Source of the DNA: a virus
DNA length: 64,000 bases
IMG/VR virus record: IMGVR_UViG_3300036791_001907
Location: 32,001-96,000 of that record
Strand: one strand, 5' to 3'
Positions 15,715 to 53,681 of the stretch are shown in pieces. The notes beneath the pieces were generated by a model. It had not been told where the DNA came from, did not search any database, and saw only the letters and a program-made list of their open reading frames with translations. A program made the position numbers and the translations under genes. How positions within the stretch are numbered: position 1 is the first letter of the stretch; each line of letters opens with the position of its first letter.

Positions 15715-17193
15715 GTGGCTAAACGCCAACCCGCCTCGAAGTCCGTCAAGTCCACCAAGTCCACCAAGTCCACCAAGTCCATCAAGGCCAGCAGCAAGGC
15801 CTCCCGTAAACCCGCCCCGATATCGGCTCCGGAGCCGACCGTGGAGCAAACCCAGGCAGCCGCCCCGGCGCCTGGTGCAGAACCGATCGTGACGCCGGCA
15901 CCGGAACAGGCCACGGCGACGGAACAGGCCGTGGTGCCGGCCGTCACGTCGGTTGAGGAGCCGCCCGCGGATCCCGGCGACAGGCGCAATCTGCCGCGGC
16001 CGCGGTGGGCGCCCAGGCCACCGCTCAAGCGGCGGCCGCGGCCTGCCATGCGTGTGGCGCCAGCGCCCGCTCCGGCGCCGGCAGCGGCGCCGGCAGCGGC
16101 GCCGGCCGCCACGGCCGCCCCGATGTCGGCGGAGGCGGCCGGTGATAAGCTCGCGGAGGTGCTGGCTTCGGCCATGCCCGCCGAAGGCATCGCCTACGAG
16201 CCGGACAACGTGATCGAGGCCCCGTTCCAGGTGATCTCCGTCACGGACAATCCGGCTCCGTCCGCCCCGGGTCCGTTTGCCCGGGCTGGCATGGCCGGCA
16301 GGGCTGCGGCGGCGACGGCTCGGGTCGCGGCACAGCCGCAGGCGGCTCCGACAGCACAGCCGCAGGCAGCCGCGACGGCGCAGCCGCAGGCAGCTCCGAC
16401 AGCCCAGCCGCAGGCAGCCGCGACGGCGCAGCCGCAGGCGGCCCCGACCACGCCGCCGCCTGGCTTCTTCCAGTTCCGCGAGTCGCCCCTGGTCAAGGAC
16501 TTCGGGCCGATCTTCCGGTGGCTCTGGAGCGTCATCACGTGGATCGGAAAGGGCATCGCGAAGCTGGTGATCTGGCTCCGGGACAAGATCGCCACCAAGC
16601 TCCGAGCCACGGAGACGGGCCGGGCGATCGCCAGGCACCGGTACAGCATCGGGATCGCGGCGGCCGCCGTGGTCACGATGATCGCCGGGATCTGGGTGTA
16701 CCCGTGGCTCCAGATCAGCACACCCACGCTGGGCGTGCTGGCTCCCCGCGGCACGGTGGTCACGACGACCCCGTCCGGCCAGGTGGTCGTCACGAAGACC
16801 GCCGGGTCGGCCCGTCTGCCCTGGGCCGAGGTGCCTGGCCCTGGGTTCCGGCCGGACAGCCTGATCCAGGAACTGGTCGTGCGCCTCAATGGCGAGCGCG
16901 CGCCGGTGGCTCAGGTCGTCAGCGAGCTGGCCGCACAGGTCGGCAGCAACGGCTACATCGCCATGTGGGCCGAGGAGTGGCCCTGTGGCGCGGTCGACGT
17001 CCACCTGGAGGTCGAGCGCGACACAGCCCTGACGATGTTCCCCGGCATGGCGCAGATGCGTGACCAGGTCACGACCTGCTGCCGCGACGGAAGCGTCGCC
17101 GTGAAGGTCATCCATGACGGCCCCAAGCCGGCCGCCCCGTTGTCCTCGCCCGTAGTACCGGCCGCCCCCAGGGCGTTCCTGGTCAGCCAGTGA
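15715..17193 (+). CDS. Ala/Pro-rich membrane-anchored protein with internal tandem repeats
   Basis: KST repeats (9 nt) near 15748, AQPQAA(P/A)T x5 (24 nt) at about 16330-16450, hydrophobic segment 'IGIAAAAVVTMIAGIWVYPWL'. Confidence 0.65.
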   Translation: MAKRQPASKSVKSTKSTKSTKSIKASSKASRKPAPISAPEPTVEQTQAAAPAPGAEPIVTPAPEQATATEQAVVPAVTSVEEPPADPGDRRNLPRPRWAPRPPLKRRPRPAMRVAPAPAPAPAAAPAAAPAATAAPMSAEAAGDKLAEVLASAMPAEGIAYEPDNVIEAPFQVISVTDNPAPSAPGPFARAGMAGRAAAATARVAAQPQAAPTAQPQAAATAQPQAAPTAQPQAAATAQPQAAPTTPPPGFFQFRESPLVKDFGPIFRWLWSVITWIGKGIAKLVIWLRDKIATKLRATETGRAIARHRYSIGIAAAAVVTMIAGIWVYPWLQISTPTLGVLAPRGTVVTTTPSGQVVVTKTAGSARLPWAEVPGPGFRPDSLIQELVVRLNGERAPVAQVVSELAAQVGSNGYIAMWAEEWPCGAVDVHLEVERDTALTMFPGMAQMRDQVTTCCRDGSVAVKVIHDGPKPAAPLSSPVVPAAPRAFLVSQ

Positions 17194-28785: not shown

Positions 28786-29289
28786 CCCAATGAAGGAGGA
28801 TGATGGGCATGTGGACGTCTTATCTTCAGCTCCGCGGCGCCGAGGCCCGTGCGGCCGGACGGTCCCGCGACGATCACCAGCTCGACAGCCAGGACGCGGC
28901 GCTGTGGCTGGAGGGCTACGATGCCATGAACCAGAGGATCACGTCGCTCCTCGGCGAGATCCGCAGGGGTTGGCTGGTCCCGCACGTCGTCTTCGTCCAG
29001 CGAGAGCGACCCAGCGTTCCCGTGGTGATCACTCCGATCCGAGGATTGTCCGAATGAACAAGCCCAAGTATCACCGCGGCCAGAAGTTCCGGATGGGCAG
29101 CGACGGCTCGCGGTTCGAGATCGAAAACGTGCGCGTGCTGGCACCCGATGATCGGATCGGCTACGAGCTGCGCGGCCTGGAGGAACCATTCCAGGGAATG
29201 GTTCTTCACCGCTTCGAGGCCGAGCTGGAACGCGACTTCGAGCTGGAGCCAGAACCACCAAAGGAGGACCCAGCGTAACGATGCAGCGA

Positions 29290-29689
29290 ACCGACGGCCA
29301 GCGGTATATCTGGCGGTGATGGCAGCGATGGGTATGTTGCGGCGGGCCGAGCTACGTCGTGGTAGGTCCGGCAGCTGCGGTTGGGTTCGTCATGGCGAGC
29401 CGAGCATGGGTATGCTCCGTCATGGCAGCCGAGGCATGGTTTGTTGGACCATGGCGAGATGAGCTTAGCCGAGCTTCGGCGAGGCAGCCGGGGTGTGGTT
29501 CGGCGGGCTGTGCGGCGCCACGCCAGGGTTGGGCAGCTCAGATCAGGTGTGGACAGCTCTGGCCGGCAGCGCCAGGTCATGGCAGCCGAGGATAGACCTG
29601 GCCAGCCACGCGGAGCCGTCGTGAGCCGGGGCAGCATTGGCTGGTCACGTCATGACACGGCCAGTCGAGCACGGCCATGTTATGTCAGC
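29290..29689 (+). ncRNA. Guide-RNA array 1: pseudoknot repeat plus 7 pentamer-coded units (VIPR-like)
   Basis: 33-nt repeat at 29290-29322, then units such as GGCA|GCTGC|GGTTG|GGTTC|GTCAT|GGCGA|GCCGA|GCATG|GGTAT|GCTCC|GTCAT|GGCA. Confidence 0.85.
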
Positions 29690-29706
29690 ATTGAAAGGAG
29701 GTGAAT

Positions 29707-29928
29707 GTGTCAAAGATAGTTCATTTGATCTATCATCGCGTCCCCAACGATCGGATCTCAGACATGAGCGAGGTCGTGGGGGTCGTGACCACGGGCTGGC
29801 AGGATGCCGATGCGATCGTGGATCAGCTCAACGCGCGGGACCCATCCGGATTCGGCTGGCAGCGCGACTACTGGAAAAAGGAGGTTGATGTCATCACCAA
29901 GGATGATGTTCCGCGTCGCACTCCATGA
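29707..29928 (+). CDS. Small hypothetical protein between arrays
   Basis: GTG start after AAGGAGG; the pentamer periodicity stops here. Confidence 0.55.
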   Translation: MSKIVHLIYHRVPNDRISDMSEVVGVVTTGWQDADAIVDQLNARDPSGFGWQRDYWKKEVDVITKDDVPRRTP

Positions 29929-29940
29929 CAGGAGACAGCG

Positions 29941-30207
29941 ATGATCTGTCCGGAATGCGGGCATTCCAACCCGGTGATCGCCGCCGAGTGTCTCAAGTGC
30001 CGGTGCCGGTTCCTGGAACACGGTTGTTTTTCCGAGCAGTATCAGCACCCGCTCGTCGGCAAGCGAATCCAGGTCAATACCAGGACCGGCTGCATGGCCG
30101 AAGGGGTCGTGGAGCGGGTGGTGTCTTCACGTTTCGGCCTGCTCGCCTGCCTGGAAGGCGAAAACGGCAGGGCCTGGGCCGTGAACCAATGCACGCCGGT
30201 CACCTGA
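29941..30207 (+). CDS. Small Zn-ribbon protein between arrays
   Basis: 'CPECG...CLKC'; RBS AGGAG. Confidence 0.6.
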   Translation: MICPECGHSNPVIAAECLKCRCRFLEHGCFSEQYQHPLVGKRIQVNTRTGCMAEGVVERVVSSRFGLLACLEGENGRAWAVNQCTPVT

Positions 30208-30219
30208 CCGGCGTCATGG

Positions 30220-30629
30220 ACCGATGGCCGGCGGTATATCCGGCGGTGGTGGCTAGCCCTGGCGACATCAGCAATGGTCGCGCGAGCACTGCCGTGGCGC
30301 GTTCAGGCAGTACAGGCGGGGTGATGCGGGCAACGGCAGGGCCGGGTCCGTCCGGCGATGTCATGCCACGGTATGGCAGCTCAGGTGAGTTCAGATCGGC
30401 CATGCGCGGGCTGGCTGCGGTGACCAGAGGTGGGTCGAGCCGTGGCGAGGCAGCGTAGCCATGGAAGGGTCGGGTCGGTTGAGCTGCGGCGAGCCCAGCT
30501 GACGCAGGGCTGGCCGCGGCAGCAAAGAACCGATGGCCAGCGGTATATCTGGCGGTGACGGGAAGCATCGGCAGCGACGGAATGGCAGGGCAAGTTGCGT
30601 CTTGTTCCGGCCAGCCAAGTCATGGCTGC
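30220..30629 (+). ncRNA. Guide-RNA arrays 2-3: two pseudoknot repeats, 5 units; the last unit matches the downstream RAMP gene
   Basis: Repeats at 30220-30252 and 30529-30561; GGCA-delimited pentamer tracts. Confidence 0.85.
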
Positions 30630-30754
30630 GTCGTATTGCCGATCACTACGAGGACGATCCGCCTGCGCGGTGGATCGGAACACGTACTGAACACCCTACA
30701 GTTGCAGGGCCGCGGGACGCGCGGCCCGTCTCACTGGCGACAAAGGATGATCCA

Positions 30755-31666
30755 ATGCCAGCCAAGAAAGGTCCGGCCAAGGGGACAGTCCCGGTCAACA
30801 TCCCCCAGCCACAGATCCTCGACTTCGGGATCGGACTCATCGGCGTGACGCCGACGATCTCGAACGCATTCCCGCAGAAGATCCGTGAGAAGCTCGTGGC
30901 TGATCACATGCACATGCCTGAGGCCCTCATCCCCCACGAGGCCAAGGACCCGTGCGCCAACTTCAGCGCGTGCATCCACTACGTCAAGTCCAAGGACGGT
31001 GGGGTCAACTTCGCCATGCCCGGCTCCTCGTTCAAGGGGGCCATGGTCGCGGCGTGCCGGATGACCAACAAGAAGTTGGACATGGCCAGTGCCAAGCAGT
31101 TCTTCCAGGTGATCCCGTTCCGGGTCCAGATGTACGGCGACGAGCCGATCATGTGCGAGCACCGGGTCCGCAACGACAACGGCGGCGTCGACATCCGGCA
31201 CCGGGCCATGTACTGCCGTTGGTCGGTGATCCTGCCGATCCGCTACCACGCGGGGTCGATCTCCAAGGAGTCCCTGATCTACCTGGCGGAGCTGGCCGGC
31301 TTCGGCTGTGGCATCGGTGACTGGCGGATCGCGGCGCCCAAGAGCCCCAACGGGCAGATGGGCGCCTTCCGCGTGGCCCGCGAGGGCGAGATCGTCGGCC
31401 CGGCGTACTCCAAGTGGTGCGCCAAGAACCCGTTCGACTGGGACGAGTTCGAGCAGTACGGCATCGTCCCGCCCGCGCGGGTCGAGTACTACCGCAAGGC
31501 CGCCGAGATGGTTCGCGGCCTGCCGCCCGAGCAGCGGGGCACGCCCAAGAAGGGCAAGAGCCGGAAGGCTGTGCCCACCGCTGCGGCCGCCGCGGCGATC
31601 ATCAACGGCGTCCAGCCCGTCGACGGCCTTGAGCCGCCCGATGACGGCTACGTGCCGCAGCAGTAA
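30755..31666 (+). CDS. vipr: Stand-alone RAMP/Cas7-like RRM protein; putative RNA-guided effector (Vipr-like)
   Basis: 303 aa from ATG 30755 (RBS AAAGGA). First strand 'IGLIGVTP', RAMP helix motif 'MPGSSFKGAM', C-terminal G-rich loop 'AGFGCGIGDWR...GQMGAFRV'. No other cas genes in the window; flanked by the arrays. Confidence 0.8.
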   Translation: MPAKKGPAKGTVPVNIPQPQILDFGIGLIGVTPTISNAFPQKIREKLVADHMHMPEALIPHEAKDPCANFSACIHYVKSKDGGVNFAMPGSSFKGAMVAACRMTNKKLDMASAKQFFQVIPFRVQMYGDEPIMCEHRVRNDNGGVDIRHRAMYCRWSVILPIRYHAGSISKESLIYLAELAGFGCGIGDWRIAAPKSPNGQMGAFRVAREGEIVGPAYSKWCAKNPFDWDEFEQYGIVPPARVEYYRKAAEMVRGLPPEQRGTPKKGKSRKAVPTAAAAAAIINGVQPVDGLEPPDDGYVPQQ

Positions 31667-31741
31667 CCACTTCGTGCAGGAGGACGACCGGGGGCCAGGA
31701 TGGCCCCATCTTTCCCGCAACCCTAGCAGCAAGGATCGAAC

Positions 31742-32275
31742 ATGCCATCGGGTGTCAAGAAGAAGTCATCAGCGCCGGCGCCGGCGCTCAAGTACGAGTT
31801 CCGGGCCTGCTTCCGGAGCCCGCTCGATCCCAACGTCGTCGCGGCGCGGCTCGAATGGCTCAGAACCAGACTGAGCCGGGACCCGGAGGGTCAGGACGTC
31901 CTGGAAGACGCCCGGCCCGTCGGCTCGCCGTTGCATGATCACTTCGACTGGAATGACTACGAGGCCGGCGAGAAGCATCGGCTCGGCCAGGCCACGGATC
32001 TGATCAACGCCATCCGGGTCACCGTTTACGTGGTGGCGAAGCCCAAGGGGCGGGTCAAGCAGCTGCTGCCGGCCTATGTCCGGCTGAAGAACCCCGCCGG
32101 TCGGCGCACCTTCGTCGCAGCGACCATCGCGACGGCAACGCCCCGGCGCGCAGAGACGCTGGCGGAGACCATCATTCGGTATGCACACATGGCGACTCGC
32201 GATCGCGCGCTCGGGCTCACCGAGCTGGATCCGCTGTTCGACGTGATTGATAAGTTGAAGAAGCGGTACGGCTGA
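31742..32275 (+). CDS. Accessory protein of the RAMP locus
   Basis: 177 aa; 'ARPVGSPLHDHFDWND.EAGEKHRL.QATDLINAI' is a phage hypothetical motif I recall next to such RAMP-like genes. Followed within 10 nt by a pseudoknot repeat. Confidence 0.7.
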   Translation: MPSGVKKKSSAPAPALKYEFRACFRSPLDPNVVAARLEWLRTRLSRDPEGQDVLEDARPVGSPLHDHFDWNDYEAGEKHRLGQATDLINAIRVTVYVVAKPKGRVKQLLPAYVRLKNPAGRRTFVAATIATATPRRAETLAETIIRYAHMATRDRALGLTELDPLFDVIDKLKKRYG

Positions 32276-32283
32276 TGCAGCAG

Positions 32284-33923
32284 ACCGACGGTCGGCGGTA
32301 TATCCGGTGGTGACGGGAAGGCGGCAGAGATCCGGCTTCGTTCGCTCCGGCGTGCGACGCTGGGGCCCGGCAGCCAAGGACCGGCGTGGCAAGCCGCGTT
32401 CTGGCTTGCAGCGTCTAGGTTCGGCCGCAGCGGAGGGCCAGGCCGGGGTAGTGTTCGGCTCCGCAGGTCGAGGCTTGTCCCGGTTCGGCAGCTCGGGTGC
32501 GTCGTGCTGCGAATAGGCATCGTGAGGCTGGCTTCGGCAGCGTCAGGCAGCGGCGGAGGGCCTTGTCCGGGTGTGGCATTCGGCGGCTTGGCGTGCCCAG
32601 GTGAGCCGAGGCCGTACAGGTTAGGCGGGATGCGCCCGGCACTGCAATGGCCTGCTCCGGCTGGCCGGGCAGTAAAGAACCGACGGCCAGCGGTATATCT
32701 GGCGGTGACGGCAGTTCAGGAGCGGATGGGACGGCCCAGGCAGGGCTTGTTACGGCCCGCCGGGACTCGTTTCGGCGCCGCCGTATTGGTCTGGCTTCAC
32801 ATGCCGTGGCGACGTGAGCCGCGGTCAGCACAGGAGCGGCAGCGATGGTTCGTCTAGTCTACACAAGGCAGGCCCAGGCAGCCGGAGGTATGCCCAGCAG
32901 GGCCATGGCCGTACAGGACAGCAGGGGTAGGTAAAGCACGGGCAAGCCGTGCCGGGTCCCGGCAGCGAAGCCGAGTTCCGGTGTGGTGCGCCGTGGTGGC
33001 GTCCGTCACGGCGGGCCATGTCGCGGCTAGTCAAGTCGCGGCAGCAAAAAACCTATGGCCACAGGTATATGTGGTGGTGATGGCAGGCAGGGCAAGCCCT
33101 GTCACGTCGCGGTGCGGCATGTCCCGGCAGCGTAGGCTTGGTCAGATACGCGAAGTCCTGGTACGCCGCGGCCGGCACAGGTTAGCTGCGGCCAGGCAGC
33201 ATAGGCTCGTCCCAGCAAAGGCAGGTCGCGACAGGGCTGGCCGCGGTTCGGCAGCATTGGCTGGGAAAGCCCAGCCCAGGTTCGCCGCGCCACGCAGGGC
33301 TTCGGCGGGGCGGGGCAGTCAAGGATCGGCATGGCGTGTCTAGCCACGGTCCGTCATGGCGAGTCGTGCTGCGGCAGCGGCGGAGAGCCGAGCCGTGGTG
33401 GCAACTGGTGGGCCAAGCTACGTTGTGGCGACGCCGGATAGGTATGGCATGCCCCGGACTGCCATGGCGAGTCATGGCGGGCCATGGCGAGCCGTGGCCG
33501 CGAAGGAGTGGCCGCCCGGCGTTCGTCCGGCGTTGGTTGGTCTAGGTAGGGACGCGTCAGCCGGGGCAGTCATGGTTTGGCGCGGCTTGCCTGGTCGTGC
33601 CACGGCAAGCGATGCCAGGGATGGGCAGCAAAAAACCCATGGTCACGGGTATATGTGACGGTGATGGTGCGGCAGCTCGGCCCTGCCATGATGGGGCATG
33701 TCGAGCCGCGGCCAGCAGCGCAATGGTAGCGCTGGTGTTCCCAAGCTTGGCCTGGGTAAGTCAAGCGCTGGCCAGCCGGGGCAGCGAAGGTGAGGCTAGA
33801 TCTATCGAGCCTAGCGCTGTCATGTGCTGGTGAGCCGGGGTGAGCCTCGGTACGGTATCGCCGCTCTGGCGGCGTTAGTCGTGACATCGAAAGCTGTGGT
33901 ATGCCGAGTCGAGGTCAGACAGC
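32284..33923 (+). ncRNA. Guide-RNA arrays 4-7: four pseudoknot repeats, about 24 units
   Basis: Repeats at 32284, 32679, 33051 and 33635; continuous 5-nt periodicity reset by 4-nt GGCA/GGCC/CGCC delimiters. Confidence 0.9.
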
Positions 33924-33936
33924 AGAGGAGGTGTGA

Positions 33937-34152
33937 ATGATCGGACCCAAGTGCGAGTGCCGAAAGCCGACCTTTCCGTCTGAAGACGAACAGTCCTGGC
34001 TGTGCATGAACCCGGAGTGTGCGGGCTTCCAGCAGGTCTACTGCGAGTTGACGCCGGCAGACCTGGCGCTCATCGCCAAGCTGAAGGCGCTGGCCAATGG
34101 CCACTGGCAGCGTGTTGCAAAAACCCGAAAACTCCGCGGTACCAGGAAGTGA
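33937..34152 (+). CDS. Small Zn-finger protein inserted in the array
   Basis: RBS GAGGAGG; 'CEC...CMNPEC'; lacks pentamer periodicity. Confidence 0.6.
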   Translation: MIGPKCECRKPTFPSEDEQSWLCMNPECAGFQQVYCELTPADLALIAKLKALANGHWQRVAKTRKLRGTRK

Positions 34153-34157
34153 TGAAC

Positions 34158-35835
34158 GGTTCGGCAGCCGCGGTGAGGTGCGACCGGGTTCGTCCAGCGA
34201 TGGCGGACCTTGGTGTGGCATCACAGCAGTAAACCTATGGCCACAGGTATAAGTGGCGGTGATGGAATGGCAGCATCGGACGGGCTCGGACGGGCCATGA
34301 CGGGCCGGGTTAGCTGTGCCGCGTCAAGGCAGTACTGGCTAGGTTTTTCAGGGCATGCTCTGGTGCGCCTGGTCACGGCCGTCTAGGTGAGGAGTCGCGT
34401 GCAGCGGCTTGCCACGGCCAGTTCTGTCGAGGCAAGCCGAGGCCGTCAAGGTGCGGCCAGGCAAGTAATGCAGGGATCGGGCTGGCTATGGTCCGGCCGC
34501 AATGGCAAGGTTAGTTGCGGCTGGTACCGGCGGGGCGAGCCCTGCTGTGGTATGGCCGTAACGGTAGTCCGCGGAGCGCCATGGACGGCCCCGCTCAGGC
34601 TGGCCAAGGTCGGCCGAGGCAGTCTTGCAAGGGATCGTCCAGCCTGGTTGTGCCATGGCCAGGCAGGGGAGCAGAGGTGTGTTCTGGCACCCTGTGATCT
34701 GGCCGGCCAAGTCACGGCAAGGCCGGGCAGCAGTAAACCCATGGTCGCGGGTATATGCGACGGTGATGGAAGGGCAGCCGTGGACAGCAGGGTTATGATG
34801 CGCTGCGCAAGGGCTGGTCCTGGCAGGCCAAGGATCGGCAGGAGAGCACAGGTCCGGTCTGCATAGTAGTGGCGAGACCTACCATGTCGAGCCGGGTTTC
34901 GGCAGCAATGCGAAGGTGAGCCTTGCCGGGGCGGCCGTAGCTGTGGCAGTGTAGTCGAGTCGTGGCAAGCCTAGTCCGGCATAGTTGGGCTCTGGTCCGG
35001 TCCGGCAGCAGAAGTGTGTCTTGGTCCGCCGCGTCGCGACGCGGTGGGATCCGGCAGTAATGGTGCGGCTAGTCATGGCGCCGCGAGCCGCGCTGTGTCA
35101 TGTCATGATCTGGCTAGGCCGGACAGCAAAAAACCGATGGCCAGCGGTATATCTGGTGGTGACGGGAAGCATCGGCAGCGACGGCAAGCCGTGGTGTGGT
35201 ATGCCCGGCTCCGCCAAGCTACGGCAGCAGTGGGCAGGCTGGGCAGGTTTTGCTCCGTCGTGTCGAGTGTTGGTAAGGCAGCCATGGTGTGGCCCGGCGC
35301 GTCATGTCGCGTCGTCCTTTGCGCCGGCATGGCGTGGCCGCTGTGGCAAGACACCCTTAGTCATGATGGGGCCGGGCGGGCACCTGTTTGCTGCGCCGAG
35401 TCGTGGCAGTGACGCAGTGGTGTGTTGTGCCCCGGCCTGCCCCGGCGAGTCCTGTCATCGTGGGCAGCGCTGAGGCAGCAAAAAACCCATGGCCACGGGT
35501 ATATGTGGCGGTGATGGACAGCCCCGCGCTGGCCGGCTTTGGTCAGCCATGCAGAGCTGCGGCAGCAGAGGTGAGGCGTGACCAGCACAGCCGGGGTACG
35601 GTTCGCTGTGCCCTGGTTAGGCAGGTGGGTCATGGTTCGCGATGGCGCGTTGAGCCTTGCCATGGTGAGGCAGCAATGGATCGGCGGGCTGTGGCACGGC
35701 AAGCCTGGGTCGGATCCGCTGCGGCAGCGGAGGTGCGGAACGCCATGGACCGGCAGGGTGGGCCAGGGTGGGCCGAGCCACGGCAGCACGGGTGTGCCGT
35801 GTCCGGCCTAGTCAAGGACGGATGAGCCGCGCACT
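34158..35835 (+). ncRNA. Guide-RNA arrays 8-11: four pseudoknot repeats, about 26 units
   Basis: Repeats at 34233, 34737, 35133 and 35485; same pentamer grammar; ends at a strong hairpin. Confidence 0.9.
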
Positions 35836-35840
35836 GTGGA

Positions 35841-35870
35841 AGGGGGCGTGGTCTTCGGGCCACGCCCCCT
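35841..35870. terminator. GC-rich hairpin with cUUCGg tetraloop closing the array
   Basis: AGGGGGCGTGGTC-TTCG-GGCCACGCCCCCT, between the + strand array and a convergent - strand gene; U-tract weak. Confidence 0.7.
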
Positions 35871-35872
35871 CC

Positions 35873-36079
35873 TTATACCTTCACGCCGGCGAGCAACTCG
35901 AAGACCCCGAATGCCTTACACAAAAAGATGATCAGAACCAGGGCCAGCAGACCATAAGCGAGGTGAATACACCACCGCGGGTAAGCCAGCCTCGATCCCA
36001 GCTGCTGATCGGCGAAGGCGACCAGCGCGCAGGCGATGATGAACGCCAGAACGGCCAGCAAAACGCCGAGCAAACTCAC
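35873..36079 (-). CDS. Small two-TM membrane protein
   Basis: 68 aa, two hydrophobic helices, coupled to the upstream - strand gene. Confidence 0.6.
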   Translation of the reverse strand: MSLLGVLLAVLAFIIACALVAFADQQLGSRLAYPRWCIHLAYGLLALVLIIFLCKAFGVFELLAGVKV

Positions 36080-46147: not shown

Positions 46148-49870
<3,723 letters not shown>

Positions 49871-50016: not shown

Positions 50017-53000
50017 TGAGCGAGCAACCAACCAAGGGCGTGCCCAACCTGCTGGTCCAGATCACAGGTGACACGGCACTCTACGAGGCCGACAGCGACA
50101 TGAACGTCGTCCTGATCAACTGGGACCGCCTGGCGGACGACGACACGACCAGGGGCACGCTGTGCGAGGTCTGGAAGGAGATCTGGACCCTGCCCGAAGC
50201 GATGCGGGAGGGCCCGCTGTGCGACCTGATCGACATGGTGGAAGAGCGGTTCCCGATCATGGCCGAGTTCTGCCCCGAATGGTGGGATAATGACTACGCG
50301 GTGCCGGCCGGCCCGCCGGTCCCATTCGATGCCACCGCGGCCATCCTCCGGATGGGTCCCGACGCGGTCGATAGCATGCAGGATAATGCCCTTCCTACGG
50401 ATCGCCTGGCTGATGATCTGCCGGCGCGACAAGCCCATGACGGGCCGTTCGAGGTCAAGGTCCGGCAGGCTGCGCTCGAGTTTCTTGCAGCCGACCTGAA
50501 TGAGGCCGCCGACAATGAGCGCTCCGGAACCGCCTGAACTGCCCGACGACTACGACGGCACGCTCTACCGGGTGGTCTTCGTCGAGGACGGCGAGCGCAC
50601 GATCGTGAACGTTCTGCTGCCAGGGCTGACCGCAGCCGTGAATGCCATGCGCCGCGCCATGATGGCGCTGCTGACGGCCCGGATCGGCCATCTCATCGGG
50701 CCCCAGACGCCCTACGAGGGCCAGGCGGATGTCTTCGGCAAACAGGTGCGGCTCTACCTGCCTGATGGTCCTGTGGACTTCCTGATCGAGGAGAGCGACG
50801 ACGATGCAATGGACCCCTGAGAAGCTCAAAGAACGGGTCGCGGCGCTGCCTGAGGACGTGCGGACCACGATCATCTGCGACGTCGCCTGGAGCTTCTTTG
50901 GCGATCTCGATGACGATGGCGAGGAGTACATCGACACCGGCCGCAGGCCCGACAGCCCGGACCTGACTGCGGCGGTCGACTATCTCCGCGAGGAGCTAAC
51001 CAAGATGCGATCCGAGGAGGCTAACAATGACGACGCAGTTTGATCCCCTGGGTTCCCACTACGCGATGCATGGCGGCGACGCCGGAACCATGGTGCCGCT
51101 CTCCCGGGTACTGATCGAGACGGCCTTTATCCTGATCCCCGACGTCACCCTTGAGGTGGCCGTCACAAAGCTCCTGACGCTGGCGCGCAAGCTCGACGTC
51201 CCGGTCGATGACGGCTGGCTGGAGAACTGGTGTCGGGAGCTGTGCACCGAGGTCTGGCAGATGACCGCCTGATCAAGGAGAACAATCCCATGTCCATCGA
51301 CCTGTACAGCTACCAGGCGTGCCTGGGCACGCTGGTGATCGACTGGGCCAACCGCACGTTCACGCTCGCGGGCATGGACGGCGACGGCGGCGAGGAGATG
51401 ACCGTCGCCGATGTCCAGGCAACCTTCGCGGCGCATGCCAACAACGACGACATCGAGGTCTCGGCGCTCGTCTTCTGGCCCGAGAACGAGCAGCTCTGCG
51501 CTCATGATGAAGGCAGCTTCGCCAACGAGCTGGAGCACGACCGCGAGATCAAGGGCGACGACGAGGAGGACGGATGCGAGACGTGAAGCTGCCCGACGGC
51601 ACTTGGGTCACGACCGCGCTGTTCGCCGGGGCGGCGACGGCGCAGGCGCAGTGCCCGGACGATACGTGCGCGTGGGAGGACAACGGCCCGATCATGGGCG
51701 AGGGGCCGGTGCCGGTCCAGCTCCAGCGGTGCCCCCGCTGCGGCTGGGTCCGCGGCCGCTACCTGGGCAACCCCCACCCCGAAGCTGGAAGCGACGAGCC
51801 ACTGGACTACAACCTGATCTGAACCACAGAAAGGCAGGAGCAAGGATATGGTGGAAGCCGACGACGCCGATGGGAAGCTACCCGACGTTGGTGGTGTGAT
51901 CGCTGACGGCAAGCACCACGGGACGTTCTGTGGCTCCTGCCGCACAGAGCTCAGTTCTTACGAGGTCCGTTAGGCGTACGGTTCAGACAGGGAGAATCTT
52001 GATGAGTAAGCTTTCGCAGAATGTCTGGATGGTCGACAACCTCAACCCCAATTCCCGGGATCCCGATGACGATGGAGCCGACGAGGGCTTCGATATCTCC
52101 GTGTACGACAGTCTGCTCGATGCCGACCAGGAGGCCAGGCGCATCGCCGGTTGCAGTCGATCGTCCCTGGCAACATCGGACTATCTGGTTTACCGCGGAC
52201 ACGATGGCGCGATCAGTGTCCTCGTTCACAGGGTTCCTCGCGAGGTGGCCAGTGCGCAGTGGCCCGAACTTGCGATCCCGACTGTCGACTATCCGGTGAC
52301 CGAGGAGGATCTCGCACTGATCAGGAAGCGTACCTGCAAACGCGTGCAGCGGCAGATCGCGGCCATCAACCTGCAAACCACCGCGATCGTGCAGCTGAGG
52401 GACAAGGTAATGGCACTGGCGGTACTGGCGATGCTGGCAGGAGAACCCGACCCGATCCGCCGTCCGCCCGTAAAAGGGGCTCGGGTTCAGTTCGCCTATC
52501 TCATTGCCCGCGGCCCGAACAAGGGACGGTTTGCCGCGGTGTTCAAGTGTCCGCAGCCCGGAGGATACCAGCTCGTCACTGGTCCCGAACGCTCATTCTC
52601 GGGTGGTTCGGGGCTGAAGCTGGACCATCGGACGGTCTATGGCAACTACACGACGCTGGCTGCGGCCATGGACGGTCTGGAGGCCCTGTTCGCCGATCAG
52701 CTCAGCGACCATCTCCGGCAGCTTCTGGCCACGGACTGCGCCACGCTCCGCTCCTGACCTTGAGGAGGATCCCAATGCCAGATCCTGAACTGCGCGCGGT
52801 CATCGTGCTGGGCAAGGATCACCTGAAGTGCCCTTACTGCGGCATCGCGGGGCTCGACAACTTTTACTACGTGGAAACCGCCTCGACCATGCGGGAGCTG
52901 ATCAGTCTGACGGATCAGTTGCTGCTGATCCGGTCGCATTACGCCGTGGCCGATGAGAGTACCGACAATCCCCGGCTGGGATGCAAGAGCTGCGACAAGG

Positions 53001-53313
53001 ACTGCGCGCTCCCGCCCGATCTCGAACTGGAATGGGAGTGATCATGGCCACGACCACCCTGGGACCGGACGGCCTGCTGGTCGAGGTGCGCGACGAAAGC
53101 GATGGCGACAACCGGGCGCCGCCCCGCACCTTCAAGGTGGCGCAGGATGCCTACGGCATCTTCGTCGAGGACGTTCAGAGCGGCCACCACGTGGTGCTGG
53201 AGATCTTCGATGGCCAGTTGAGCGCCCTGGTCTTCGACCGCGATCAGGAGGAGCCGGTGGTGAACCACAAGTTCACGCTCCCGCCCGCGGAAGACCAGCA
53301 CGGCGCCCCTTGA
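50017..53313 (+). other. Cluster of about 8 short co-oriented hypothetical ORFs (e.g. 50017-50537, 50500-50820, 50804-51043, 51027-51272, 52002-52757)
   Basis: Overlapping start/stop codons and RBSs; several acidic or CxxC-containing; no family recognised. Confidence 0.55.
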
Positions 53314-53318
53314 TGTGA

Positions 53319-53535
53319 TCCGATGGCCACCGGAATATGTGGCGGTGACGGCAGCGCAGGAGAGGACAGCCGTGGCAAGCCGAGCCCGCTCGCGGCAGGG
53401 CAGGCCAAGGCGGGCCTTGGCAGCAAAGGCGGGGCGTGGACGGACGCGTTATGCTAGGATGAGCCTCGCGCAGGCAGGACCGCCGAGGATGGTTGAGGCT
53501 TGATCTATCAGGGCACGCCCAGCCAAGTCAGGGCA
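53319..53535 (+). ncRNA. Orphan guide-RNA array 12: pseudoknot repeat plus 3 units
   Basis: TCCGATGGCCACCGGAATATGTGGCGGTGACGG, then GGCA|GCGCA|GGAGA|GGACA|GCCGT|GGCAA|GCCGA... Confidence 0.85.
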
Positions 53536-53681
53536 GGACGCCAGTCGTACTGGTCGGGACCCTACCGCCGGACCCGGCGGTGGGCCTGACACCCGGGGAT
53601 CCTGGGACACCTCTTGCCCCCAGGATCCCAGGTGGGCCGGTCTCTGGAACGAGACGTCGTTCCGGGGGCCGGTCCGTTTTC

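What the first reader, a model, noticed from the sequence alone, without database searches (positions are those of the whole stretch)
29290..35517. Twelve copies of a 33-nt H-type pseudoknot with covariation in both stems
Seen: consensus ACCNAYGGYCRSNGGTATATSYGRYGGTGAYGG at 29290, 30220, 30529, 32284, 32679, 33051, 33635, 34233, 34737, 35133, 35485 and 53319. Stem 1 (nt 1-4/13-16) varies as ACCG/CGGT, ACCT/AGGT, ACCC/GGGT, TCCG/CGGA. Stem 2 (nt 8-12/21-25) varies as GCCAG/CTGGC, GCCGG/CCGGC, GCCAC/GTGGC, GTCAC/GTGAC, GTCGC/GCGAC, plus G-U variants. Every stem substitution keeps pairing, and the stems interleave, so the element acts single-stranded. Internal copies follow an A-rich linker (e.g. 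GGCAGCAAAAA). Inference: a loading/nucleation handle, processing signal or nuclease block heading each sub-array.
Basis: seen in the sequence. Interest (0 to 1): 0.9.

Follow-up and report, generated by a model that had tools for sequence, protein, structure and literature searches.

The report
Pseudoknot leader of phage VIPR guide arrays
The twelve 33-base elements are real, conserved RNA pseudoknots that head each block of guide RNAs in a phage VIPR system, a CRISPR-like silencing system first described in 2026. They sit at the opposite end of the guides from the one published pseudoknot, and one of them serves several guides.

Summary
The whole 161-kb phage genome holds exactly 12 copies, all on the + strand. 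All 108 stem positions pair, and 5 of 9 pairs show compensatory changes. Forty-one further copies from eight related metagenomic phage contigs keep the same two interleaved stems with new compensatory variants. A blind mutual-information scan ranks the predicted pairs first. G-C to G-U toggling points to a + strand RNA.

The context is a VIPR system, known from 2026 bioRxiv preprints. It has a Vipr (Cas7-like) gene at 30755-31666, whose only sequence match among solved structures is SUSP1 Vipr. It also has about 64 pentamer guide tracts in "staggered" arrays. Published VIPR guides (phage SUSP1) carry one pseudoknot each, at the 3' end. Here the pseudoknot lies at the 5' end of a multi-guide block. 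It abuts the downstream tract in register, is often followed by a 2-4 pentamer stub, and follows a 6-nt A-rich linker or a gene's stop codon.

I read it as this clade's structured leader and cap module, probably a Vipr loading or register signal and a 5' end protector. The function is inferred, and no RNA data exist. It is a new variant of a known kind, of moderate interest. This scan has met VIPR arrays and 3' pseudoknot tails before on other DNA, but not this 5' form.

The parts
29290..29322 (+). Pseudoknot copy 1. It is first in its cluster, 11 nt after the stop of ORF 28790-29278.
30220..30252 (+). Pseudoknot copy 2. It is first in its cluster, 12 nt after the stop of the Zn-ribbon ORF 29941-30207.
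30529..30561 (+). Pseudoknot copy 3, after GGCAG plus the linker CAAAGA. It heads the short tract just upstream of vipr.
32284..32316 (+). Pseudoknot copy 4. It is first in its cluster, 8 nt after the stop of the vap-like gene.
32679..32711 (+). Pseudoknot copy 5, after GGCAG plus the linker TAAAGA.
33051..33083 (+). Pseudoknot copy 6, with stem-1 variant ACCT/AGGT, after GGCAG plus CAAAAA.
33635..33667 (+). Pseudoknot copy 7, with stem 1 ACCC/GGGT and stem 2 GTCAC/GTGAC.
34233..34265 (+). Pseudoknot copy 8, with loop variant ATAA, after the linker CAGTAA.
34737..34769 (+). Pseudoknot copy 9, with stem 2 GTCGC/GCGAC.
35133..35165 (+). Pseudoknot copy 10. The sequence downstream of it matches that of copy 3 for at least 19 nt, so pseudoknot and stub look duplicated together.
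35485..35517 (+). Pseudoknot copy 11. It is followed directly by a full-length 11-pentamer tract.
53319..53351 (+). Pseudoknot copy 12, with stem 1 TCCG/CGGA. It heads a solo sub-array 18 kb from the main locus and starts directly after the stop of ORF 52953-53318.
30755..31666 (+). vipr gene. It encodes a 303-aa Cas7-like RAMP of a long-form clade.
   Evidence: A profile of 9 homologues hits only 'SUSP1 Vipr protein' (36pp_D) among solved structures, E = 1.2e-5. The fold model matches Csm3, Cas7-11 and Cmr4. It also matches phrog_4652.
31742..32275 (+). Conserved downstream partner gene (vap-like, 177 aa).
   Evidence: A 174-202 aa gene lies downstream of vipr, directly or after one small gene, in all related loci. 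It matches phrog_15946. The winged-helix resemblance is weak.
29323..29690 (+). Staggered pentamer guide tracts behind copy 1.
30253..30630 (+). Guide tracts behind copies 2 and 3.
32317..33930 (+). Guide tracts behind copies 4-7.
34153..35840 (+). Guide tracts behind copies 8-11. The first short tract, 34153-34226, has no pseudoknot of its own.
53352..53541 (+). Guide tracts of the solo sub-array behind copy 12.
35842..35869 (.). GC-rich hairpin that closes the main array, between convergent transcription units.
   Evidence: Read directly from the sequence.

Best explanation
The 33-nt element is a compact H-type RNA pseudoknot. Stem 1 has 4 bp, loop 1 has 3 nt, stem 2 has 5 bp, there is no junction nucleotide, and loop 3 has 4 nt. 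A conserved GG.G..GG flank follows. Together these form the leader module of each multi-guide block in a staggered-array VIPR locus. The arrays are co-transcribed with the flanking genes on the + strand. Each block reads: A-rich 6-nt linker (or a gene's stop), pseudoknot, then pentamers in register with it. Those pentamers are often a 2-4 pentamer stub ending in GGCAG. Then come 4-10 guide tracts of about 11 pentamers each, joined by -1 steps. I propose that it is this clade's counterpart of the 3' pseudoknot tail of SUSP1 guide RNAs. On this view it is a sequence- and shape-specific handle that fixes where and in which register Vipr protomers start to coat the RNA. It would also leave a structured, exonuclease-resistant 5' end once the block is cut free in the A-rich linker. 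Shown here: the fold, its RNA strand, its conservation, its 5' position and phase-lock, and the VIPR context. Inferred: Vipr binding, cleavage in the linker, and protection of the 5' end.
For: Structure:
- 49 copies from 7 sources give 99.8% paired cells, 6 of 9 pairs change on both sides, and 0 of 500 shuffles reach the score.
- The window alone gives 100% pairing.
- The four highest mutual-information column pairs of the 528 possible are 11-22, 12-21, 1-16 and 4-13.
- A search that uses only unpaired columns returns hits with either 2-5 or 8-9 pairs and nothing in between, so the pairing filter did not create the signal.
- Further variants flip pair 2-15 to G-C (L299, L301) or lengthen loop 3 to 7 nt (L298).

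RNA, + strand:
- Pair 8-25 is G-C in 26 copies and G-U in 23.
- All copies are on the + strand.

VIPR context:
- The Vipr homologue is supported.
- The arrays hold 64 tracts with a median of 11 pentamers and consensus G-B-Y-N-N. Of 73 phase shifts, 56 are -1. This matches the 'staggered arrays' and the 9-16 repeats of bioRxiv 10.64898/2026.04.26.720920.

5' position:
- 45 of 53 copies are followed by a strongly G-periodic tract locked to phase 0 or -1, while only 35 of 53 are preceded by one.
- First-in-cluster copies follow stop codons.
- The last blocks have no downstream copy.

Analogy to the published cap:
- SUSP1 tails are also H-type pseudoknots, with a 4-bp stem 1 and a 6-7-bp stem 2.
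- Cryo-EM shows the SUSP1 pseudoknot capping the Vipr filament (10.64898/2026.04.26.720927).
- The SUSP1 tail is treated as the determinant of Vipr complex formation (10.64898/2026.10.15.759431).
Against: There is no expression, end-mapping or binding data for this locus or its relatives. The published pseudoknot is at the other end of the guide and shares no sequence with this one, so homology is unproven. Only 12 pseudoknots serve about 64 tracts, so most guides must load and survive without a cap of their own. That weakens a simple cap-per-guide role. In 9 of 12 window copies the adjacent tract is a 2-4 pentamer stub, too short to be a guide by published lengths. The next Vipr clade outward (L302) has an array without this element, so it is not essential to staggered arrays in general.
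Confidence: 0.55

Rival explanations
1. It is a Vipr-independent punctuation and stability element. A host RNase cuts in the A-rich linker, and the pseudoknot only blocks 5'-end-dependent decay (RNase J or RNase E type) of the released block. It plays no part in loading Vipr.
For: A fixed 6-nt A-rich, unpaired linker precedes the internal copies. Other VIPR clades punctuate their arrays with hammerhead ribozymes, or with tRNA-like modules according to an earlier scan note. That shows processing modules are a recurrent theme. Most guides lack a pseudoknot, so loading does not need one.
Against: The conserved unpaired bases (A5, U18, A19, G26, G27, G32, G33) and the zero-spacer, in-phase junction with the pentamers suggest specific recognition together with the tract. 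A mere roadblock would not need them. First-in-cluster copies have no A-rich linker.
Confidence: 0.22
2. It is a 3' tail of the preceding block, as in SUSP1. It only appears to head blocks because the blocks are tandem.
For: The published VIPR pseudoknot is a 3' tail. In internal copies the distance to the upstream tract is also fixed, and 23 of the 35 periodic upstream tracts share one phase.
Against: In 18 of 53 copies no strongly periodic tract was detected upstream, and most of these follow coding sequence or stop codons. In L298 the upstream gene's stop codon lies inside the element. Every cluster's last block lacks a downstream copy. The element abuts the downstream tract with no spacer, but is separated from the upstream one by a non-periodic linker.
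Confidence: 0.08
3. The linker plus the pseudoknot is a small self-cleaving ribozyme of an undescribed class. It would release blocks, filling the role of the hammerheads found in other VIPR types.
For: Hammerhead-interspersed VIPR arrays exist. The element has invariant unpaired nucleotides and a pseudoknot, as small ribozymes do.
Against: No Rfam ribozyme family matches, even at E up to 5. At 33-39 nt it is smaller than any known self-cleaving class. First-in-cluster copies lack the linker, yet keep the element.
Confidence: 0.05
4. It is a DNA-level signal: a promoter with a TATAT box, a protein operator, or a recombination site that shuffles blocks.
For: It has an AT-rich core in a 65% GC genome. 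Copies 3 and 10 share their downstream sequence for at least 19 nt, which suggests block duplication.
Against: Compensatory changes in two interleaved stems, and the G-C to G-U toggles, have no meaning for duplex DNA. The core varies among relatives (TATAT, TATAC, GATAA, TCTAT), with only T18 and A19 fixed. No sigma-70-like promoter is found at any copy. If transcription started downstream of the element, RNA covariation would not be selected.
Confidence: 0.04
5. It is a recoding signal: a stimulator of -1 frameshifting (four copies create A AAA AAC with the linker) or of stop-codon readthrough after the upstream genes.
For: H-type pseudoknots are the classic stimulators of recoding. Four copies form a slippery heptamer, and four copies lie 0-12 nt after a stop codon.
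Against: The heptamer overlaps the pseudoknot itself, with no 5-9 nt spacer. It is absent from the other copies and from relatives whose linkers are CAACAA, CAATGA or CAACGA. The internal copies lie in non-coding pentamer arrays.
Confidence: 0.01

Closest known systems
3' pseudoknot tail of type II VIPR guide RNAs (Escherichia phage SUSP1; bioRxiv 10.64898/2026.04.26.720920 and 10.64898/2026.04.26.720927)
   Same: Both are compact H-type RNA pseudoknots with a 4-bp stem 1 and a 5-7-bp stem 2. In both, the stems covary while the loops are conserved. Both directly abut a GGY-NN-type pentamer tract of a Vipr-bound guide RNA. A sister clade here (L298) even has a 7-nt A-rich loop 3, like SUSP1.
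   Different: This element lies 5' of the tract, not 3'. There is one per block of about 4-10 staggered guides, not one per guide. It is often followed by a stub of 2-4 pentamers. It shares no sequence with the SUSP1 tail, its loop 3 is 4 nt against 7-9, and it has no junction nucleotides. It goes with a long (about 300 aa) Vipr, not the 202-aa SUSP1 protein.
Staggered vrRNA arrays of VIPR systems (fig. S18 of 10.64898/2026.04.26.720920)
   Same: Tracts of about 11 pentamers are joined by a one-base overlap (-1 register step) with no per-guide tail. The repeat is a degenerate NNNNG/YNNNG-type pentamer.
   Different: The searchable text of the four preprints that mention these guide RNAs describes no structured element heading blocks of a staggered array. 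The figures could not be seen.
Hammerhead-interspersed VIPR arrays, and the 5' and 3' repeat handles of CRISPR crRNAs
   Same: All are conserved structured modules that punctuate an array of variable guides and define the ends of the functional RNA.
   Different: No ribozyme signature was found. Unlike a CRISPR repeat, this element does not separate every guide.

Membership tests
VIPR system (Vipr protein plus vrRNA) | A Vipr protein: a stand-alone Cas7-like RAMP homologous to the described Vipr | tested here: met
   A profile of 9 homologues hits only 'SUSP1 Vipr protein' (36pp_D) in the PDB, E = 1.2e-5. The AF2 model has modest confidence (pLDDT 63) and matches Csm3, Cas7-11 and Cmr4 chains. 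In a profile search of protein-cluster representatives, 2816 matched at E up to 0.001; those listed below the long-form clade are mostly about 200-aa proteins.
VIPR system (Vipr protein plus vrRNA) | Non-coding tracts of 9-16 tandem pentamers with a conserved GGY-type part and variable NN | tested here: met
   There are 64 tracts with a median of 11 pentamers. The consensus is G (93%), B, Y (77%), N, N. Only 0.6% of random 50-nt background windows reach this G periodicity.
VIPR system (Vipr protein plus vrRNA) | A viral genome context with an adjacent accessory (vap) gene | tested here: met
   The genome is a 161-kb single contig with a terminase-like gene and a ribonucleotide reductase. A 174-202 aa gene lies downstream of vipr, directly or after one small gene, in every related locus. 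Its function is unknown.
VIPR system (Vipr protein plus vrRNA) | The guide RNAs are expressed and bound by Vipr | not testable with these tools
   No RNA run holds the sequence.
SUSP1-type vrRNA pseudoknot tail | An H-type pseudoknot supported by compensatory changes | tested here: met
SUSP1-type vrRNA pseudoknot tail | It lies immediately 3' of the pentamer tract, one per guide | tested here: not met
   It always lies 5' of a tract, and in 18 of 53 copies no periodic tract was detected upstream. There are 12 elements for about 64 tracts.
SUSP1-type vrRNA pseudoknot tail | Sequence similarity to the SUSP1 consensus tail | tested here: not met
   Reading the four SUSP1 tails side by side shows no shared sequence. 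Only the topology is shared.
Staggered vrRNA array | Adjacent guides overlap by one base (-1 register step), with no tail between guides | tested here: met
   Of 73 phase shifts, 56 are -1. Spacings between GGCAG motifs are 5n+4.
Known self-cleaving ribozymes and other Rfam families | A match to a curated covariance model | tested here: not met
   There is no match at gathering score across the window, and none at E up to 5 in 29200-35900 apart from two chance hits elsewhere.
-1 frameshift or readthrough stimulatory pseudoknot | A slippery heptamer or stop codon 5-9 nt upstream, with a continuing ORF | tested here: not met
   The heptamer occurs in only 4 of 12 copies and overlaps the pseudoknot. 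The internal copies lie in non-coding pentamer arrays.

The most novel reading that the evidence does not exclude
The pseudoknot plus its short conserved pentamer stub is the single nucleation site of a whole block. Vipr would load there and polymerise 5' to 3' across several guides, and each -1 step would break the filament into separate effector complexes. That would mean one loading signal for many guides, placed at the opposite end of the guide from the type II pseudoknot. It might be tied to the roughly 90-aa C-terminal extension that is peculiar to this Vipr clade.
Probability: 0.25. Interest if true: 0.65.

Novelty: new variant of a known kind. Interest (0 to 1): 0.45.

Why it matters
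VIPR is a very recent addition to RNA-guided systems. How its staggered, tail-less arrays are cut into guides and loaded with protein is not known; the preprint itself says this architecture was not confirmed by RNA sequencing. A conserved, covarying pseudoknot that heads each multi-guide block gives a concrete handle on that question. It marks where blocks begin. It predicts a processing site in the A-rich linker. It also offers a natural experiment on whether the pseudoknot cap works at either end of a Vipr filament. For engineering, a one-leader, many-guides layout could allow compact multiplexed arrays.

Tried and rejected
- **Rfam:** no family matched at gathering score or at a permissive E-value.
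- **Phage collection, DNA search:** nothing was found.
- **IMG/VR:** no relative of the protein was found, using either the single sequence or the alignment.
- **Motif pattern scans:** a strict pattern found nothing in IMG/VR. A degenerate pattern in IMG/VR, metagenome and genome contigs gave almost only single chance hits. Only L067 was genuine, and the other paired-looking hits have no pentamer array beside them.
- **Sequencing runs:** no RNA holder is listed. The one DNA holder is a soil metagenome that may be the source of the window.
- **Sigma-70 promoter scan:** no site lies at any copy.
- **Actinophage relatives:** Mycobacterium and Gordonia phage proteins at about 29% identity sit in tightly packed gene regions, with no obvious array in the flanks I fetched. 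I did not pursue them.
- **Alternative nested pairing:** RNAfold proposes positions 2-4 with 31-33, but pair 4-31 pairs in only 35 of 49 copies, against 49 of 49 for pair 4-13.
- **Recoding and DNA-level readings:** both rejected, as set out under the rival explanations.
- **VIPR type:** I could not assign one of types I-VII, because the classification data and figures are not available as text.

Full report
**Observation.** No match is expected by chance. The window lies in a single-contig genome of 161,481 bp and 65% GC. That genome holds no further copy, even with five mismatches allowed. The 12 copies are 12 different sequences. Every one of the 108 stem cells forms a standard pair. Five of the nine pairs change on both sides. 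No shuffle of 500 reaches the covariation score, and sliding the 3' partners by 1-3 columns drops pairing to 28-48%. The A-rich linker is also real. Eight internal copies follow a tract end (GGCAG or a near variant) plus exactly six unpaired, A-rich bases. The other four copies begin 0-12 nt after the stop codon of a gene.

**Independent support from other phages.**
- The 303-aa protein at 30755-31666 has metagenomic homologues at 44-60% identity.
- Their contigs (L001, L002/L003, L288-L292) and one metagenome contig found by pattern (L067) carry the same element 3-10 times each.
- In 49 copies from seven sources, 99.8% of cells pair and six of nine pairs show compensatory changes. Pair 11-22 takes all four Watson-Crick forms.
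- I checked that my pairing filter did not create this result. A search that uses only the unpaired columns returns hits with either 2-5 pairs or 8-9 pairs, and nothing in between.
- A blind mutual-information scan over all column pairs ranks 11-22, 12-21, 1-16 and 4-13 first.
- Two further clades add more variants. L299 and L301 keep the geometry but flip the otherwise invariant pair 2-15 to G-C. L298 keeps both stems with one junction base and a 7-nt A-rich third loop.
- Pair 8-25 is G-C in 26 copies and G-U in 23. Only + strand RNA tolerates that.
- The stems use separate nucleotides and interleave, with loops of 3, 0 and 4 nt across 5-bp and 4-bp helices. My own assessment is that an H-type pseudoknot is sterically plausible.

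**What surrounds it.**
- The non-coding stretches behind each copy are G-skewed and rich in GGCAG, at 11-16 per kb against about 2 elsewhere.
- Distances between successive GGCAG motifs are 5n+4.
- Segmentation gives 64 tracts with a median of 11 pentamers and consensus G-B-Y-N-N. Of 73 register changes, 56 are -1.
- In VIPR systems, a Cas7-like Vipr protein coats guide RNAs made of 9-16 GGY-NN pentamers and silences DNA through a gapped code. 'Staggered arrays' with one-base overlaps and NNNNG-type repeats are reported (bioRxiv 10.64898/2026.04.26.720920).
- A profile of the protein family hits one thing only among all solved structures, the SUSP1 Vipr protein (E = 1.2e-5).
- A modest AlphaFold model (pLDDT 63) matches Csm3, Cas7-11 and Cmr4.
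- So the locus is a VIPR system with a long-form Vipr, a conserved downstream partner gene and about 64 guides.

**Position of the element within that system.**
- In SUSP1 each guide ends in a 3' pseudoknot tail. That tail caps the Vipr filament in cryo-EM maps, and it is treated as the determinant of complex formation.
- I read the SUSP1 locus (KT454805, 27.5-29.5 kb, minus strand). Its four tails are H-type pseudoknots with a 4-bp stem 1, a 6-7-bp stem 2 and a 7-9-nt A-rich loop 3. They directly follow the last pentamer.
- The element here has the same topology but the opposite placement.
- Of 53 copies with enough flank, 45 are followed by a strongly periodic tract locked to the element's G27/G32, or one step off after an early junction. 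Only 35 are preceded by a tract.
- The rest mostly follow coding sequence. In L298 the upstream gene's stop codon lies inside the element.
- The last block of every cluster ends at a gene or a terminator-like hairpin, with no downstream copy.
- In 9 of 12 window copies the adjacent tract is only 2-4 pentamers long before the first GGCAG step. In the others it is a full tract of 11-13 pentamers.
- Because the first copies start within 0-12 nt of stop codons, and no promoter-like site is found, the arrays are most simply co-transcribed with the genes. They would then have to be processed.

**Mechanism.** My best reading (0.55) is that this is the clade's structured leader module. It would be recognised together with the first pentamers, set the start and register of Vipr coating, and leave a protected 5' end after a cut in the A-rich linker. 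The invariant unpaired bases and the zero-spacer, in-phase junction favour specific recognition. Against a simple per-guide cap stands the ratio of one pseudoknot to about five guides. The main rival (0.22) is a Vipr-independent processing and stability signal. The other rivals are much less likely, for reasons given in their entries:
- a 3' tail of the preceding block
- a new small ribozyme
- a DNA-level signal
- a recoding signal

**Distribution.**
- The element was found in every fetched relative that has flanking array sequence: the close homologues (L001, L002/L003, L288-L292) and the three nearest sister clusters (P0011-P0013, 324-417 aa).
- It was not found in the next clade outward, whose array follows vipr directly.
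- No cultured phage carries this clade. The host is unknown, and the source is a soil metagenome.

**Novelty.** VIPR, staggered arrays and a pseudoknot cap on guide RNAs are all published, so the finding is not categorically new. The searchable text of the four preprints that mention these guide RNAs describes no pseudoknot at the 5' end of a multi-guide staggered block. Their figures and supplements were not available. Earlier reports of this scan describe 3' pseudoknot tails and staggered arrays on other DNA, but not this combination. I rate it a new variant of a known kind, of moderate interest.

Noticed in passing
window 46148-49870 (+): A class II (B12-dependent) ribonucleotide reductase of 1240 aa is interrupted by an intein that carries an HNH endonuclease.
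   Followed up: no
window 53319-53541 (+): A solo sub-array (a pseudoknot plus about 4 tracts) lies 18 kb from the main VIPR locus. It starts directly after the stop of a 121-aa ORF and is followed by GC-rich hairpins. This suggests the pseudoknot-plus-tracts block is a portable module.
   Followed up: partly
window 30529-30587 and 35133-35191: Copies 3 and 10 share the same downstream sequence for at least 19 nt (the stub and the start of the next tract). The leader and stub seem to have been duplicated together.
   Followed up: no
window 29941-30207 and 33937-34152 (+): Two small Cys-rich (zinc-ribbon-like) ORFs of 88 and 71 aa are embedded between guide blocks. The first has a weak Pfam Zn_Ribbon_1 hit.
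   Followed up: no
window 30706-30728 (+): A strong GC hairpin lies between the short guide tract and the vipr ribosome-binding site. It could be an attenuator or a stabiliser of the vipr mRNA 5' end.
   Followed up: no
L298 805-845, 1516-1553 and 3966-4003: A sister clade (324-aa Vipr) has a variant leader with one junction base and a 7-nt A-rich loop 3, like the SUSP1 tails. Its array junction motif is GGCCGG. In the first copy the upstream gene's stop codon lies inside the pseudoknot.
   Followed up: partly
window 30860-30862, and 9-13 kb beyond the window's end: Earlier first-reader notes claim that one guide matches the vipr gene itself, and that a second RAMP-like gene and an IS110/Nop-like gene lie further along the genome. 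I checked neither claim.
   Followed up: no
window 16001-17000: This 1-kb bin has unusually high GC (0.736) and 7 GGCAG motifs, outside the VIPR locus.
   Followed up: no
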